The notes beneath the pieces were generated by a model. It was not told the DNA's origin, ran no database searches, and saw only the letters and a list, made by a program, of their open reading frames with translations. A DNA stretch of 28,683 nucleotides, taken from contig DPYP01000212.1 of NCBI GenBank assembly GCA_003545375.1, positions 1-28,683 on the forward strand, written 5' to 3'. Positions 1 through 4,397 of this stretch are shown here, one piece after another. The DNA is from Lentisphaeria bacterium. GTDB taxonomy: Bacteria; Verrucomicrobiota; Lentisphaeria; JABSQK01; CAJWLW01. Position numbers and translations under genes: made by a program. Each line of letters starts with the position of its first letter. Positions within the stretch are counted from its first letter, which is position 1.

Positions 1-759
1 TCGGATTATGAAGTTGTACCGGTGTCGGACGGGGAACCGTTGCGGAGCGAACTTACGCACTTCGCAGAGTGCGTCCGCACCCGGCAGCAGCCGCGTTCGG
101 ACGGGGCCGAGGGTCTGCGGGTGCTGAAAGTGCTGGAAGCCGCCGAGGATTCACTCTTGCCGCATGCCACGGTGCAGCAGACGCCGTCCTATTTCATCCA
201 TCCATCGTCTTGCGTCGACGACAACGTCACCATCGGTGAGGGTTCGAAGATCTGGCATTTCAGCCATATCCTGCATCACAGCCGGCTCGGGCGGGAATGT
301 GTCGTCGGCCAGAATGTCAGTGTCGGACCGGATGTTGTGATTGGTGACGGTTGCAAGCTGCAAAATAATGTTTCGGTGTACAAGGGTGTGACCCTGGAAG
401 ACAATGTCTTTTGCGGGCCGTCCTGCGTCTTTACCAACGTCTACAATCCGCGGGCCTTCATCGAGCGCAAGGAGGAATTTCGCCCCACGCTCGTAAAGCT
501 TGGCGCGACGCTCGGTGCCAATGCCACGATCATCTGTGGTGCTACCATTGGCAGTTACGCCATGATCGGTGCCGGTGCTGTCGTGCGCGGTGATGTACCG
601 GACCACGCGATTGTTGTCGGCGTTCCGGCGCGTCAGATCGGCTGGGCCTGCACCTGTGGGGCGACGTTGCGATTTGAAGATGCCGTGGCCACCTGTCACT
701 GCGGCCGCACCGCGACGCTCACCGACGATCAGCGCGGCGTGCTGATCCGCAGTGACTGA
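1..759 (+). CDS. 5'-partial fusion: C-terminus of a Gfo/Idh/MocA (WbpB/WlbA-like) oxidoreductase joined to a hexapeptide-repeat N-acetyltransferase (WbpD/WlbB-like, UDP-2-acetamido-3-amino-2,3-dideoxy-glucuronate N-acetyltransferase)
   Basis: Frame 1 is open from base 1 ([14 protein letters not shown]...), so the GTG at 22 is not the real start. [37 protein letters not shown] is a typical Gfo/Idh/MocA terminal helix. [67 protein letters not shown] and GVPARQIGW are WbpD/WlbB signatures. Confidence 0.88.
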
Positions 760-858: not shown

Positions 859-1674
859 TTACAGGCCCTTGATTACCTCGAGCACCTGGTCGTAGTCAGG
901 GTGGTCGGTGACTTCACCGACGATTTCGGCGTGCGCGATATTGCCCTCGGTATCGACGACATGGACGGCGCGGGCCAGTAGCTGCAGTTCTTTGATCAAT
1001 AGCCCGTAGGCGTTGCCGAAGGCTTTGTCCTGGTAATCCGAGAGCGTAACCACCTTGTCGATGCCGTGGGTGTCACAGAAGCGGCTGGCGGCAAATGGTA
1101 GATCCATGCTGATACTCAAGATCACGGCATCGAGGTTGGCCGCCTCTTCGTTGAACCGCCGAGTCTGCTGCTCGCAAACCGGTGTGTCGAGCGACGGTAC
1201 GGAGCTGATGACGACAACTTTCCCGGCGTAGTCGGATAGCTTGACCGGCTGCAGCGCCGGATTGATAGCGATGAAGGCAGGGGCAGTATCGCCCACGGCA
1301 ACAGGTGTGCCCTGCAAGGTCAGCGGTTCGCCCTTGAATGTGATAAGGTCGCTGCGTTCCGCCGCTGGTTCGTCAGCGTTGCTGCCGCTGCCCACGGCTT
1401 TTTCGAGCTGCTCGACACGCGCCGCGAGGTCGTCGATTTTGCGACTGGTCGGCAGTTTACCGACCGCGGCGTTGACGGTGCCGTTGATCTTTTCCTCGAT
1501 GTCCTTGCGGGTCTTGGCAGATTCGTTGAGAAGATGATCGTACAGCTTGCGGCCCTCCTCTTCCGAGAGCTTGGCGCTCTCGGCCAGGTCCCGTGCGGTC
1601 TCGGCAATCTTCTCCTTGGTCATGTAAGCGAGTCCGAGGCCGGTCAGCATGGATTTCTTGATAAAGTCAATCAT
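859..1674 (-). CDS. tpx: Fusion protein: N-terminal phasin-like/COG3937 helical domain (aa ~1-93), GS linker, then thiol peroxidase Tpx (atypical 2-Cys peroxiredoxin, aa ~106-271)
   Basis: The Tpx part has ITFKGEPLTL, VPSLDTPVC (peroxidatic Cys167), SMDLPFAASRFC (resolving Cys200), LLARAVHVVD and EVTDHPDY. The N-terminus MIDFIKKSMLTGLGLAYMTKEKI...LSEEEGRKL...DLAARVEQLEK fits the COG3937 pattern. An AGGAG RBS precedes the ATG. Confidence 0.88.
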   Translation of the reverse strand: MIDFIKKSMLTGLGLAYMTKEKIAETARDLAESAKLSEEEGRKLYDHLLNESAKTRKDIEEKINGTVNAAVGKLPTSRKIDDLAARVEQLEKAVGSGSNADEPAAERSDLITFKGEPLTLQGTPVAVGDTAPAFIAINPALQPVKLSDYAGKVVVISSVPSLDTPVCEQQTRRFNEEAANLDAVILSISMDLPFAASRFCDTHGIDKVVTLSDYQDKAFGNAYGLLIKELQLLARAVHVVDTEGNIAHAEIVGEVTDHPDYDQVLEVIKGL

Positions 1675-1764
1675 GGTCAGTCTCCTACGGTGTTGTTCGA
1701 CGTCTGTATCGATACTAATGTTGCGGCCATTGCGAAAAAACGGTAATTCGGGCCTGGCGCCAGC

Positions 1765-2484
1765 TCAGCCGGTGATCAGCGTCCCGGCGCTGGTATCGCC
1801 ACCGACAATGCGCTGTAGGTTGGCGGCGTCATTGAAGTTACAGACGATGATCGGGATGCCGTTGTCCATGCACAAGGCGAAAGCGCTGGCGTCCATGATC
1901 TTGAGCCGCTTTTCGAGCGCTTCCTCATAGGTCAGCGTTTTGTAGCGCTTGGCGTCCGGGTGGGTTGCGGGATCTGCCGTGTAGACGCCATCGACTTTGG
2001 TAGCCTTGAGAATGGCATCGGCGCCGACCTCGCTGGCGCGCAGCGCCGCGGTCGTGTCGGTCGTGAAATACGGCGAGCCGGTACCGGCCGCGAAAATCAC
2101 GACGCGCCCCTTTTCGAGGTGCCGGATGGCGCGGCGGCGAATGAATGGTTCGGCGAAGCCGCGCATTTCAATGGCGGTCTGCACACGGGTCGGAACACCC
2201 AGCTTCTCGAGCGCATCCTGCAGAGCCAGGGCATTCATCACGGTGGCCAGCATGCCGATGTAATCGGCACTGACTCGGTCCATCCCGCGGCTGCTGGCGG
2301 CTATACCCCGGAAGATATTGCCACCCCCGATGACGAGGGCCACCTGCACACCCATCTCCTTCAGCTCCTTGATCTGGTTGGCAACGTTTTCAGTAGTCGC
2401 CGGGTCGACGCCAAATGGCAGCGGCCCCTTGAGTGCTTCGCCACTGAGCTTGACGAGGATGCGCTCGAAAATTATTTCAGCCAA
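1765..2484 (-). CDS. pyrH: UMP kinase
   Basis: Motifs [56 protein letters not shown] and KATKVDGVY. The start is reassigned to TTG at 2484, which has an AGGGG RBS 7 nt upstream. The 34-aa extension in the ORF track is not PyrH-like. Confidence 0.97.
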
Positions 2485-2592
2485 GGTATGAACCCCTGTT
2501 TTGCCGCGTGGATCGCGCGACACGTGGACTGACAAACTAACCTTGCACGGCGCTGTTTTATAGATGCCGCAGAAAAACCTTGCCACACGGGC

Positions 2593-2625
2593 AAAAAAAA
2601 AGAGCCACCGGACGGGTGGCTCTTT
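2593..2625 (-). terminator. Intrinsic terminator after tsf
   Basis: Perfect 11-bp inverted repeat AAAGAGCCACC (2599-2609) / GGTGGCTCTTT (2615-2625) with a 5-nt loop. The A-run at 2593-2601 gives a U-tract on the minus strand. Confidence 0.9.
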
Positions 2626-2632
2626 GAGAGCA

Positions 2633-3445
2633 TCACTGGGGGGCGACTTCGCCGACCTGCCAGCGGGCGAACCGGCAGATCTTTGCTTTCGGATTCACCT
2701 TCTCCACGGCGAGCTTGTCGTCGCGAACCCAGGCTTGCCTGGTCAGGCAGATATCCTTGTACCACTTTTGGATTTTACCGGTGAGGATCTTCTCGAGCAT
2801 GTCCGCCGGCTTGTCGGCGAGCTCTGGGGTGGCGGCGGCGATTTCCTTTTCCTTTGCCACGGCCTCGGCGGGCACGTCATCGGGCGAAACATATTGCGGA
2901 CTGTACGCGGCAACATGCATGCACAGATTCTTGAGGTATTCTTCGTCCGCTTCGCCGTCGACATCGACGAGCACGGCGATTTTGCCGCCGGCGTGGATGT
3001 AGGACTCGCATTTACCCTGCGCTTCCCAGCGCATGACGCGGCTGATCTGGATATTTTCACCGACTTGATTGACCAGGTCCGGCAGCTTGTCCTTGGCCTG
3101 GTCCTTGATCGCGTCGGTCTTGCAGCCTTCGCCGTCGAGCTCGGCAGCGGCGGTCGCCAGGCTGTCGCAGAATTGGCCGAAGACTTCGTTCTTGGCGACG
3201 AAATCGGTCTCGCACAGAACCTCGACGAGTACTGCGGTATTGTTGTTCAGCAGCGTGGTGACACGCCCTTCATTGGTGCTGCGACCCGCTTTCTTGGCGG
3301 CCTTTACGGCGCCGGACTTTCGCAACTGATCGACTGCTTCCTGGATGTCCCCATCGGATTCAACCAGGGCTTTCTTGCAATCCATCATGCCGGCACCGGT
3401 TTTTTCGCGCAGTTCGCGAACCAGAGTTGCAGTGATTTCAGCCAT
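2633..3445 (-). CDS. tsf: Translation elongation factor Ts
   Basis: Motifs [59 protein letters not shown] and MHVAA; lies directly downstream of rpsB. Confidence 0.98.
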
Positions 3446-3551: not shown

Positions 3552-4397
3552 TTACTCGGCGTCTGCGGACTGTGCTTCCGGCTCGGCAACGGCGGTCTTA
3601 TCGTCCTTTTTCTCACTGGCGTCTTCATCGGCATCCTCGGCTTCAGCCGCGGCGGCTTCCTCGGCAGCGATGCGTACTTCTTCAGCTTCTTCGTCCGCTT
3701 TCTTCTTCGTGAATTCCTGTTTCGCCGCCTTCATAGTGGTGGACAGGACGTCGACGATGACTTTGATCGCGCGCAGCGCGTCATCGTTGCCGGGAATGAT
3801 GTGCTGGATATTGTCGGGATTACAATTGGAATCAACGACAGCGACAACGGGTACATTGAGGCGGTTGGCTTCACGCACGGCGATCTCCTCGCGCTCGACA
3901 TCGATGACGAACATGACATCCGGCATCTTGTGCATCGACGCGATACCGCTGAGGTTGCGTCCCAGCTTGTGCAGTTCCCGGCGCATTGAGGATGCTTCCT
4001 TCTTGGGCAGCGTCGCCATCTCTCCGGAAGTCTCCATGTCCTGGAGTTTCTCCATGCGATCAATGCTCTTGCGGATCGTCTTGTGATTGGTGAGTGTGCC
4101 GCCGAGCCAGCGCTCGCACATATAGTGGGTGCCGCTGTCGATCGCTGCCTGGCGCAGGCACTCCTGAGCTTGGCGCTTGGTGCCGACCATCAGCACTTCG
4201 CCGCCGGTCACTACCACCTCGTACAGATACTGACAGGCCTTTTCCAGATGAGTCATCGTCGTGCGCAGATCGAAGATGTATATGCCATTGCGGGCACCGT
4301 AGATGTATGGTTTCATCTTCGGATTCCAGCGCTTGGTCTGGTGCCCGTAATGGATACCGGCATCAAGCAGATTCTGCATCGTGATCTTGTCGGCCAA
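3552..4397 (-). CDS. rpsB: 30S ribosomal protein S2 with acidic C-terminal tail
   Basis: Motifs LLDAGIHYGHQTKRWNPKMKPYIYGARNGIYIFDL, VGTKRQAQ, RWLGGTLTN and IPGNDDALRAI. TTG start with a GGAGG RBS (4403-4407). Confidence 0.98.
   Translation of the reverse strand: MADKITMQNLLDAGIHYGHQTKRWNPKMKPYIYGARNGIYIFDLRTTMTHLEKACQYLYEVVVTGGEVLMVGTKRQAQECLRQAAIDSGTHYMCERWLGGTLTNHKTIRKSIDRMEKLQDMETSGEMATLPKKEASSMRRELHKLGRNLSGIASMHKMPDVMFVIDVEREEIAVREANRLNVPVVAVVDSNCNPDNIQHIIPGNDDALRAIKVIVDVLSTTMKAAKQEFTKKKADEEAEEVRIAAEEAAAAEAEDADEDASEKKDDKTAVAEPEAQSADAE

What the first reader, a model, noticed from the sequence alone, without database searches (positions are those of the whole stretch)
859..1674. Phasin-like domain fused to an intact thiol peroxidase: a possible granule/lipid-targeted peroxiredoxin
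Seen: a ~93-aa amphipathic/coiled-coil domain, then a flexible GSGSNADEPAA linker, then a full Tpx with both catalytic cysteines (C167 in PSLDTPVC, C200 in SRFC). There is no internal ATG or RBS before the Tpx part (..GCG GCG GAA CGC AGC GAC CTT..), which favours a real fusion over a lost stop codon. Known: COG3937 phasin-like proteins are normally stand-alone ~100-aa proteins, and Tpx is normally a stand-alone ~165-aa enzyme that prefers organic hydroperoxides. Inference: the N-domain may anchor or oligomerise the peroxidase on PHA/lipid inclusions or the membrane to reduce lipid hydroperoxides in place. I do not know of a described example.
Basis: partly seen in the sequence, partly recalled or inferred. 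Interest (0 to 1): 0.75.

Follow-up and report, generated by a model that had tools for sequence, protein, structure and literature searches.

The report
Phasin-like domain fused to thiol peroxidase
A small group of uncultured marine-type Lentisphaeria carries a real gene fusion of a small helical "phasin-like" protein to an intact thiol peroxidase; it arose when the gene between two neighbours was lost, and it almost certainly has nothing to do with bioplastic (PHA) granules.

Summary
Window 859-1674 (minus strand) is one 271-aa ORF with a strong RBS. It encodes a ~95-aa helical N-domain, an 11-aa linker and a complete Tpx with both catalytic cysteines (C167, C200).

The fusion is real. The same ORF occurs in two congeners and, at 67% identity, in a second lineage, always after pyrH. 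Both domains are under purifying selection; the linker is not.

Its origin is visible. The sister genus has pyrH, phasin-like (100 aa), valS, tpx (169 aa); loss of valS joined the two genes. One congener has deleted the fusion gene.

The N-domain belongs to a large family of stand-alone ~100-aa proteins that resemble Pfam Phasin, although this copy scores below Pfam's cut-off. PHA targeting is not supported. No PHA synthase was found in this genome or in 401 genomes sampled from the phylum, 63 of which carry the phasin-like gene. The stand-alone gene usually sits directly upstream of a UbiB/ABC1-family gene, in bacteria and in archaea, and this family of genomes lacks UbiB.

The likely function is a working Tpx tethered to a helical module that binds a membrane, lipid or protein partner. 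That step is inferred; a neutral fusion is a serious rival.

Verdict: narrow distribution, moderate interest, a new variant of a known kind.

The parts
859..1674 (-). Whole fusion ORF, 271 aa plus TAA stop (P0001)
   Evidence: Identical or near-identical ORF in G001, G002, L064 and L069.
1681..1686 (-). Shine-Dalgarno AGGAGA, 6 nt before ATG 1674-1672
   Evidence: M1 aligns with M1 of the stand-alone homologues, so M1 is the true start, not M18 as in the NCBI call P0288.
1393..1674 (-). N-domain, residues 1-94: phasin-like, four helices (2-17, 20-33, 38-72, 75-97)
   Evidence: 730 homologues at 50% clustering, nearly all ~100 aa. 71/72 hit PF05597. AF2 model pLDDT 82.8. Nearest ESM Atlas folds are phasin clusters. 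pN 0.159 vs pS 0.763 against the P0003 gene.
1360..1392 (-). Linker, residues 95-105 (GSGSNADEPAA)
   Evidence: Variable in sequence and length between lineages. pN 0.53 against P0003. pLDDT below 50 for residues 95-108 in the full-length model; non-helical in the N-domain model.
862..1359 (-). Tpx domain, residues 106-271: atypical 2-Cys thiol peroxidase including the N-terminal beta-flap
   Evidence: NF001808 at 200.1 bits, Redoxin at 3e-27. 19 solved Tpx chains at E<=1e-28.
1174..1176 (-). Codon of peroxidatic Cys167 (TGC) in PSLDTPVC
   Evidence: Read. Invariant column in A1. Aligns with C60 of B. subtilis Tpx 2jsy.
1075..1077 (-). Codon of resolving Cys200 (TGT) in SRFC
   Evidence: Read. 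Invariant column in A1. Aligns with C94 of 2jsy.
1765..2493 (-). pyrH (UMP kinase), upstream neighbour; the start is approximate. 90-nt spacer to the fusion gene with no terminator-like site
2633..3445 (-). tsf (EF-Ts), part of the conserved rpsB-tsf-pyrH context
3552..4397 (-). rpsB (ribosomal protein S2)
1..759 (+). Convergent downstream neighbour: 3' part of a GFO_IDH_MocA oxidoreductase / hexapeptide acetyltransferase gene. Not part of the fusion; it marks the deletion boundary in G003.

Best explanation
This is a genuine gene fusion restricted to one lineage of Lentisphaeria. It formed when valS, which separated a 100-aa phasin-like gene from tpx in the ancestral order rpsB-tsf-pyrH-phasin-like-valS-tpx, was lost and the two reading frames joined through a short unconstrained linker. 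These steps are shown. The product keeps everything a Tpx needs: the peroxidatic C167 in the PxxxTxxC motif, the resolving C200, the conserved Arg and the N-terminal beta-flap. It should therefore act as a thioredoxin-dependent reductase of organic and lipid hydroperoxides, which is inferred from homology. The N-terminal four-helix module is still under purifying selection. It belongs to a family that looks like Pfam Phasin, but outside this lineage it is normally the upstream partner of a UbiB/ABC1-family protein rather than of PHA synthesis. The most likely effect of the fusion is inferred and untested. The module would tether or concentrate the peroxidase at whatever it binds: a membrane or neutral-lipid surface, or a protein partner. 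That would place the enzyme near lipid hydroperoxides. PHA granules are very unlikely to be that target.
For: Fusion is real: the open 271-aa frame with a strong RBS recurs in G001, G002, L064 and L069 and on dozens of contigs from four sources. A 67%-identical orthologue, P0003, lies on 6 metagenome contigs, again after pyrH. Selection: against P0003 the N-domain has pN 0.159 and pS 0.763, Tpx has pN 0.174 and pS 0.62, and the linker has pN 0.53. Origin: G004/L021/L031 and an independent ENA contig, L030, carry pyrH, a 100-aa phasin-like gene (62% id), valS (893-913 aa) and tpx (169 aa, 61% id) on one strand. The alignment shows the join after ...LEKAV of the phasin-like protein and at residue 2 of Tpx. 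G000 has a different valS elsewhere. Tpx intact. N-domain family. Not PHA: PhaC_N 0/401 and class III PhaC over cut-off 0/401 in the phylum sample, against 63/401 for the phasin-like gene. UbiB link of the stand-alone family: 14 of 20 sampled loci in the phylum, G013 in the same order, three Ca. Methanoperedens MAGs and Cerasicoccus frondis, and L034. 31 of 72 members also hit the UbiK-type coiled-coil family PF04380. UbiB/ABC1K proteins sit on lipid droplets in cyanobacteria and plastids (PMC12223511). Phasin-family domains are used, naturally in PhaF and in engineered BioF tags, as tethers for a second functional module (PMC5658603, PMC3574117).
Against: Nothing here shows that the N-domain binds lipid, membrane or any partner. 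Its helices are only moderately amphipathic (muH 0.30-0.49), and there is no transmembrane segment. The family's usual partner, UbiB, was not found in any of the five genomes of this family, G000-G004, so the ancestral context is gone. One congener, G003, has cleanly deleted the fusion gene, so it is dispensable. The deletion origin means the fusion could be a tolerated by-product with no new function. The distribution is narrow: two 90%-identity clusters, 32 sequences. Between G000 and G002 the N-domain shows 10 non-synonymous against 4 synonymous changes; the counts are small, but this is compatible with some relaxation.
Confidence: 0.55

Rival explanations
1. Neutral by-product. The deletion that removed valS joined two neighbouring genes in frame. 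Both halves keep doing their separate old jobs on one polypeptide, and the fusion adds no targeting or regulation.
For: The sister genus has the two genes 3 kb apart on one strand with valS between. The linker is unconstrained. The gene was deleted outright in congener G003. The fusion is confined to a narrow clade. No wider phasin-like/tpx linkage was seen in 24 other loci.
Against: The fusion has persisted while synonymous sites saturated (pS 0.62-0.76 against P0003), with both domains conserved. No lineage was seen to re-split it. A flexible tether to a 95-aa helical module will in practice change where a dimeric enzyme sits or how it assembles.
Confidence: 0.3
2. One reading: the N-domain is a true phasin that anchors Tpx on PHA granules.
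For: There is family-level similarity to Pfam Phasin PF05597 (71/72 homologues at E<=0.01, best 6e-13). IMG names homologues 'PHA synthesis regulator phasin'. The nearest ESM Atlas folds are phasin clusters.
Against: No PhaC_N or class III PhaC was found in G000 (86% complete). None was found in 401 sampled genomes of the phylum, 63 of which have the phasin-like gene. This sequence is below Pfam's cut-off. The homologues' conserved neighbour is UbiB, not pha genes.
Confidence: 0.04
3. The N-domain acts on the enzyme itself. It could be an oligomerisation module that links Tpx dimers into larger assemblies, or a regulator that bears on the adjacent N-terminal beta-flap, which stabilises the catalytic triad.
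For: Phasin-family proteins commonly carry leucine-zipper-like oligomerisation motifs (PMC5658603). The fusion point is only ~5 residues before the beta-flap. Removing that flap distorts the active site of S. aureus Tpx (bioRxiv 10.64898/2025.12.11.693838). Tpx is a dimer in solved structures (established knowledge).
Against: There is no direct evidence. The 11-aa unconstrained, low-confidence linker argues against a fixed contact with the flap.
Confidence: 0.08
4. Not a fusion protein in vivo: either an annotation or assembly artefact, or Tpx is translated separately from an internal start, as several NCBI records annotate it (161, 178 or 254 aa).
For: PGAP calls of 161 aa (P0286), 178 aa (P0290) and 254 aa (P0288, this window's own record) exist.
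Against: In those same records the full 271-aa frame is open. M1 has a strong SD and aligns with the M1 of hundreds of stand-alone homologues. The internal candidates are a GTG without an SD and a non-canonical codon. The N-domain is under purifying selection in frame. The junction is reproduced in many independent assemblies.
Confidence: 0.03

Closest known systems
Stand-alone bacterial thiol peroxidase Tpx (atypical 2-Cys peroxiredoxin; e.g. B. subtilis 2jsy, S. aureus 3p7x/8zwt, E. coli 1qxh/3hvs)
   Same: Residues 106-271 are a full-length Tpx. They match NF001808 at 200 bits and solved Tpx chains at E down to 1.6e-51. The PxxxTxxC peroxidatic motif, the resolving Cys 33 residues later, the conserved Arg and the N-terminal beta-flap are all present.
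   Different: It carries a 105-residue N-terminal extension (helical domain plus linker). That extension was absent from all other Tpx relatives inspected except the P0002 and P0003 clusters.
PF05597-type phasins, especially PhaF of Pseudomonas putida and BioF-tagged engineered fusions
   Same: It is a helical, moderately amphipathic ~100-aa module with family-level similarity to PF05597. PhaF is a natural case in which such a module is joined to a second functional domain, and BioF/PhaP tags tether enzymes to a surface (PMC3574117, PMC5658603, PMC7267194).
   Different: This copy is below the Pfam cut-off. No PHA synthase was found in the genome or the phylum sample. The partner domain is an enzyme (Tpx), not a histone-like DNA-binding tail. 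Homologues pair with UbiB rather than with pha genes.
Small coiled-coil accessory proteins encoded beside ubiB (UbiJ/UbiK of the E. coli ubiquinone pathway; Pfam BMFP PF04380)
   Same: The stand-alone homologues of the N-domain sit immediately upstream of a UbiB/ABC1-family gene in bacteria and archaea. 31 of 72 also hit PF04380. The ubiJ-ubiB arrangement in E. coli is from my own knowledge and was not tested here.
   Different: The sequence similarity to PF04380 is weak and of the coiled-coil type. The fusion-bearing family of genomes has no detectable UbiB. No function of the phasin-like/UbiB pair is documented in the library searched.
Other peroxiredoxin hybrid proteins (Trx-Tpx P0087, Tpx-flavodoxin P0025 seen here; Prx-Grx hybrids such as H. 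influenzae PGdx, from my own knowledge)
   Same: It is a peroxiredoxin joined to a second module in one polypeptide.
   Different: Those hybrids add a redox partner that feeds electrons. Here the added module has no redox motif and no Cys, and it looks structural or targeting.

Membership tests
Tpx subfamily of peroxiredoxins (NCBIfam NF001808; Pfam Redoxin PF08534) | Profile score above the curated cut-off over the full domain | tested here: met
   NF001808 scores 200.1 bits against a cut-off of 123, residues 111-269 on profile positions 4-166 of 167. Redoxin scores 95.5 bits against 26.6.
Tpx subfamily of peroxiredoxins (NCBIfam NF001808; Pfam Redoxin PF08534) | Peroxidatic Cys in the PxxxT/SxxC motif, with the conserved Thr and Arg | tested here: met
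   The motif is P160-S-L-D-T164-P-V-C167. R235, P160, T164 and C167 are invariant columns in A1. C167 aligns with the Cp of 2jsy.
Tpx subfamily of peroxiredoxins (NCBIfam NF001808; Pfam Redoxin PF08534) | Resolving Cys about 33-34 residues downstream (atypical 2-Cys mechanism) | tested here: met
   C200 is an invariant column in A1 and aligns with C94 of 2jsy.
Tpx subfamily of peroxiredoxins (NCBIfam NF001808; Pfam Redoxin PF08534) | N-terminal beta-flap characteristic of bacterial Tpx | tested here: met
   Residues 110-125 (LITFKGEPLTLQGTPV) align with residues 3-18 of solved Tpx chains. The role of the flap is described in bioRxiv 10.64898/2025.12.11.693838.
Tpx subfamily of peroxiredoxins (NCBIfam NF001808; Pfam Redoxin PF08534) | Thioredoxin-dependent peroxidase activity with a preference for organic hydroperoxides | not testable with these tools
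   This needs an enzyme assay.
Phasin (Pfam PF05597 / TIGR01837; COG3937 wording in IMG) | Profile score above the curated cut-off | tested here: not met
   PF05597 scores 17.7 bits on the whole protein and 21.3 bits on the domain alone, against a cut-off of 28.8. TIGR01837 scores 15.6 against 94.7. At family level, 71/72 homologues hit PF05597 at E<=0.01, best 5.9e-13.
Phasin (Pfam PF05597 / TIGR01837; COG3937 wording in IMG) | Small all-helical amphipathic protein | tested here: met
   The AF2 model has four helices and pLDDT 82.8. muH is 0.30-0.49. The nearest ESM Atlas folds are phasin clusters, TM 0.5-0.65.
Phasin (Pfam PF05597 / TIGR01837; COG3937 wording in IMG) | Occurs in a PHA-producing organism (PHA synthase present) | tested here: not met
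   PhaC_N and TIGR01836 were not found in G000 (86% complete). Neither was found over cut-off in 0/401 genomes of the phylum.
Phasin (Pfam PF05597 / TIGR01837; COG3937 wording in IMG) | Binds PHA granules | not testable with these tools
   This needs localisation or binding experiments.
UbiB-adjacent phasin-like small proteins (unnamed grouping seen here) | Sequence homology to the ~100-aa stand-alone family | tested here: met
   phmmer finds 730 representatives at E<=1e-3 and 65 at E<=1e-10. M1 aligns to M1, and G12, G14 and G41 are nearly invariant.
UbiB-adjacent phasin-like small proteins (unnamed grouping seen here) | Encoded directly upstream of a UbiB/ABC1-family gene | tested here: not met
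   Here the gene follows pyrH and is fused to tpx. No UbiB homologue was found in G000-G004. The feature is met in 14/20 sampled phylum loci, in G013, in 3 Methanoperedens MAGs, in Cerasicoccus and in L034.

The most novel reading that the evidence does not exclude
The widespread ~100-aa 'phasin family / COG3937' proteins of organisms that make no PHA would be accessory subunits of UbiB/ABC1 atypical kinases, working at membrane or lipid-droplet surfaces. The Lentisphaeria fusion would then be a natural experiment in which that lipid-surface module was re-used, after loss of UbiB, to station a lipid-hydroperoxide-reducing Tpx on the same surface. That would make it a bacterial, self-targeting membrane peroxiredoxin.
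Probability: 0.2. Interest if true: 0.65.

Novelty: new variant of a known kind. Interest (0 to 1): 0.4.

Why it matters
If the N-domain does place Tpx on a lipid or membrane surface, this would be a rare natural example of a bacterial peroxiredoxin carrying its own targeting module. It would also be a natural counterpart of the engineered phasin-tag fusions used in biotechnology.

More generally, the work shows that proteins labelled 'phasin' in genomes without PHA synthases are probably something else. Their conserved pairing with UbiB/ABC1-family genes across bacteria and archaea gives a testable handle on two poorly understood families.

There is also a practical annotation point. Public records call this gene at 161, 178, 254 or 271 aa, so the fusion is hidden in several of them.

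Against this, the fusion is confined to a narrow uncultured clade, arose by a simple deletion, and has been lost in a congener. Its biological weight may therefore be small.

Tried and rejected
- **N-domain self-association:** Complex prediction with two copies of the N-domain (alignment A2) gave no verdict (score 0.02, mark 0.42). It is not used as evidence either way.
- **Full-length AF2 model from A4:** the model was poor (mean pLDDT 54.5) because the Tpx half of the alignment was shallow. It was not used for fold search.
- **Mixed alignment A3:** MAFFT misplaced the stand-alone N-domain sequences onto the Tpx part, so A3 was discarded.
- **Solved-structure searches with the N-domain:** Foldseek against PDB gave only non-significant helical matches (best E 0.9). 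The profile search of PDB sequences gave only coiled-coil noise such as haemagglutinin HA2.
- **The search for related loci with A2:** this failed because no stretch was conserved enough.
- **Searches for further phasin-like fusions:** region 1-100, and the A2 profile with 'longer' lengths, returned only the P0002 and P0003 clusters. The tool itself rates the 'longer' search as weak evidence. Only the best 150 of 730 representative hits were listed, so distant fusions cannot be excluded.
- **Origin of the linker:** comparing junction DNA with the G004 phasin tail and the tpx 5' region showed no recognisable similarity.
- **Literature:** 'COG3937' gave one irrelevant paper. 'phasin + peroxiredoxin + fusion' gave nothing relevant. 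'phasin + UbiB' gave two papers, neither on the gene pair.
- **Earlier scan notes:** they concerned other parts of the window only.
- **Paralogues:** a search for a paralogue of the N-domain in G000 found none.

Full report
**1. What is in the sequence**

Window 859-1674 holds a single 271-aa ORF on the minus strand.
- An AGGAGA Shine-Dalgarno sequence lies 6 nt before the ATG at 1674-1672.
- Upstream on the same strand lie rpsB, tsf and pyrH. A 90-nt spacer separates pyrH from the ORF, and it holds no terminator-like site.
- Downstream, a convergent oxidoreductase/acetyltransferase gene ends at 759.

Residues 111-269 match the NCBIfam thiol-peroxidase equivalog at 200.1 bits (cut-off 123) and Pfam Redoxin at 3e-27. 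Nineteen solved Tpx chains match at E<=1e-28, the best being B. subtilis Tpx 2jsy at 1.6e-51. In that alignment C167 (PSLDTPVC) and C200 (SRFC) fall on the peroxidatic and resolving cysteines, and residues 110-125 supply the N-terminal beta-flap. T164, R235 and both cysteines are invariant among ten aligned relatives.

There is no in-frame ATG between M18 and M190.

**2. Is the fusion real?**

Yes, on four grounds.
- **Recurrence.** The same 271-aa frame is in species representatives G001 and G002 of the same genus, at 95% and 94% identity. It is also in the NCBI Lentisphaeria MAG records L064 and L069 and on dozens of contigs from NCBI, JGI, ENA and Logan.
- **A second lineage.** P0003 (267 aa, 67% identity; 7 sequences) carries the same architecture on six metagenome contigs, again directly after pyrH.
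- **Selection.** Codon comparison with the P0003 gene gives pN 0.159 and pS 0.763 for the N-domain, and pN 0.174 and pS 0.62 for Tpx. Both are under purifying selection. The linker is free to vary (pN 0.53) and differs in length.
- **The start.** M1 of the ORF aligns with M1 of hundreds of stand-alone homologues, and G12, G14 and G41 are nearly invariant. M1 is therefore the true start.

Public annotation is inconsistent. This window's own record aa (from M18). Other MAG records or 161 aa, although the full frame is open in them.

**3. How the fusion arose**

In the sister genus (G004; the same contig in JGI/NCBI as L031, and an independent ENA contig, L030) the order on one strand is:
- rpsB, tsf, pyrH;
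- a phasin-like gene (100 aa, 62% identity to the N-domain);
- valS (893-913 aa);
- tpx (169 aa, 61% identity).

The alignment shows that the fusion keeps the phasin-like protein up to ...LEKAV and keeps Tpx from its second residue. The last six residues of the phasin-like protein, valS and the Tpx start codon were lost.

The window's genome has a different, 52%-identical valS on another contig. The simplest history is loss of the local valS with an in-frame join.

A third state exists. Congener G003 (PyrH 92% identical) has pyrH followed after about 95 nt by the convergent neighbour, so the whole fusion gene is deleted there. G003 retains a different, 48%-identical Tpx, which G002 also has.

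**4. What the N-domain is**

A full HMMER scan of 1.84 billion representatives found 730 relatives at E<=1e-3. Nearly all are about 100 aa and stand-alone. Only P0003, the representative of the fusion cluster, has Tpx size among the 150 listed.
- IMG names several of them 'polyhydroxyalkanoate synthesis regulator phasin'.
- 71 of 72 aligned members hit Pfam Phasin PF05597 at E<=0.01 (best 5.9e-13). 31 hit the UbiK-type BMFP family, and 15 hit PHA_synth_III_E.
- The window's own copy stays below the Phasin cut-off, at 17.7-21.3 bits against 28.8.
- AlphaFold2 with the 72-sequence alignment gives four helices at pLDDT 82.8.
- The nearest ESM Atlas folds are phasin clusters. No solved structure matches.
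- The helices are moderately amphipathic, and there is no transmembrane segment.

**5. Not PHA**

PhaC_N and class III PhaC are not found in the window's genome, which is 86% complete. In a sample of 401 genomes of the phylum, 379 of them of high quality, neither is found over cut-off. The phasin-like gene is present in 63 of the same 401. The PHA-granule reading is therefore very unlikely.

**6. The family's real neighbour**

The stand-alone phasin-like gene lies directly upstream, on the same strand, of a ~545-aa UbiB/ABC1-family gene in all of these:
- 14 of 20 loci sampled across the phylum;
- G013 of the window's own order;
- the metagenomic locus L034;
- three Ca. Methanoperedens (archaeal) MAGs, with gaps of 25-60 nt;
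- the cultured verrucomicrobium Cerasicoccus frondis.

UbiB/ABC1K proteins are lipid-associated and sit on cyanobacterial and plastid lipid droplets (PMC12223511). No UbiB homologue was found in the five genomes of the window's family. In this lineage the phasin-like gene has therefore lost its usual partner yet is still conserved. I found no paper describing this gene pair.

**7. Distribution of the fusion**
- Word-based searches for longer proteins carrying the N-domain returned only the P0002 and P0003 clusters, 32 sequences in all.
- Among the 63 phylum genomes with the phasin-like gene, none extends into Tpx.
- Other Tpx proteins with extensions are unrelated: a thioredoxin fusion, a flavodoxin fusion, and a singleton with an apolipoprotein-like coiled coil.

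These searches have limits, which are stated under Tried and rejected. The fusion looks confined to one narrow clade of uncultured Lentisphaeria.

**8. How it most likely works**

Shown:
- an intact Tpx is joined by a flexible, unconstrained linker to a conserved helical module;
- both domains are selected;
- the fusion was formed by deletion.

Inferred from homology: thioredoxin-dependent reduction of organic and lipid hydroperoxides.

Inferred from family context only: the module binds a hydrophobic surface or a partner and so concentrates the peroxidase there. Natural (PhaF) and engineered (BioF, PhaP) phasin fusions work in this way (PMC3574117, PMC5658603).

I put about 0.9 on 'real fusion with this origin'. 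I put about 0.35-0.4 on functional tethering to a lipid, membrane or partner. The rivals are:
- a neutral by-product, about 0.3;
- oligomerisation or regulation of the beta-flap, about 0.08;
- PHA targeting, about 0.04;
- an artefact or separate translation, about 0.03.

**9. Verdict**

This is a new domain architecture of a well-known enzyme, so a new variant of a known kind. It is real, with a clear evolutionary origin. It is also narrow in distribution, dispensable in a congener and of unproven added function, so interest is moderate.

The by-product may be of wider use than the fusion itself. 'Phasin-like' proteins in organisms without PHA synthases are partners of UbiB-family genes across bacteria and archaea.

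Noticed in passing
L046, L048-L053, L055-L061; L065-L068; L034:6001-8011; G013:C21:79977-81978: The stand-alone phasin-like gene (~100 aa, PF05597-like) sits immediately upstream, on the same strand, of a UbiB/ABC1-family gene (~545 aa). This holds in 14 of 20 sampled Verrucomicrobiota loci, in 3 Ca. Methanoperedens MAGs, in Cerasicoccus frondis and in a genome of the window's own order. None of the 401 sampled genomes of the phylum has a PHA synthase. The 'phasin' label for this family looks wrong, and the pair seems undescribed in the library searched.
   Followed up: partly
L062 (G003:C44:7380-11099), about 2226-2321: A congener with 92%-identical PyrH has cleanly lost the whole phasin-Tpx gene. 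pyrH is followed after about 95 nt by the convergent oxidoreductase/acetyltransferase gene. The locus therefore shows three states: separate genes with valS (G004), fused (G000-G002, P0003) and deleted (G003).
   Followed up: yes
L021:3227-5968 (G004 valS) versus G000:C611:8448-11585: The valS between the phasin-like gene and tpx in the sister genus is only about 52% identical to the valS found elsewhere in the window's genome, which lies in a 1097-aa open frame. This suggests that valS was displaced by a different copy before or along with the deletion that made the fusion.
   Followed up: partly
L069:1171-1989, L070; window 859-1674: NCBI MAG records annotate the same ORF as 161 aa (starting at a non-canonical codon), 178 aa or 254 aa (this window's record, from M18). 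JGI and others aa. The fusion is hidden in several public annotations.
   Followed up: yes
window 1-759 (+); L069:2080-3486; L070:2080-3486: The convergent neighbour is a GFO_IDH_MocA oxidoreductase joined to a hexapeptide-repeat acetyltransferase in one gene (523+ aa in L069, and fused in the window). In the near-identical record L070 it is called as two genes (341 + 179 aa). This is either a second fusion/split polymorphism or a sequencing or annotation difference next door.
   Followed up: no
L063:10-903 (P0094): This is a 297-aa Tpx with an unrelated ~145-aa coiled-coil N-extension that weakly resembles apolipoprotein A1/A4/E repeats (19.9 bits, far below cut-off). It comes from a single 1-kb metagenome contig, and the ORF starts 10 nt from the contig end. 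It may be an independent case of an amphipathic-helix module on Tpx, but it is a singleton.
   Followed up: partly
P0087 (379 aa), P0025 (313 aa), P0078 (250 aa): Other Tpx hybrids exist in metagenomes: thioredoxin + Tpx, Tpx + flavodoxin, and a thioredoxin fragment + Tpx. These add redox partners, unlike the phasin-like module.
   Followed up: no
window 2599-2625 (-): A strong terminator-like hairpin (11-bp stem, T-run) lies between tsf and pyrH. pyrH and the fusion gene may therefore form their own transcription unit, separate from rpsB-tsf.
   Followed up: no
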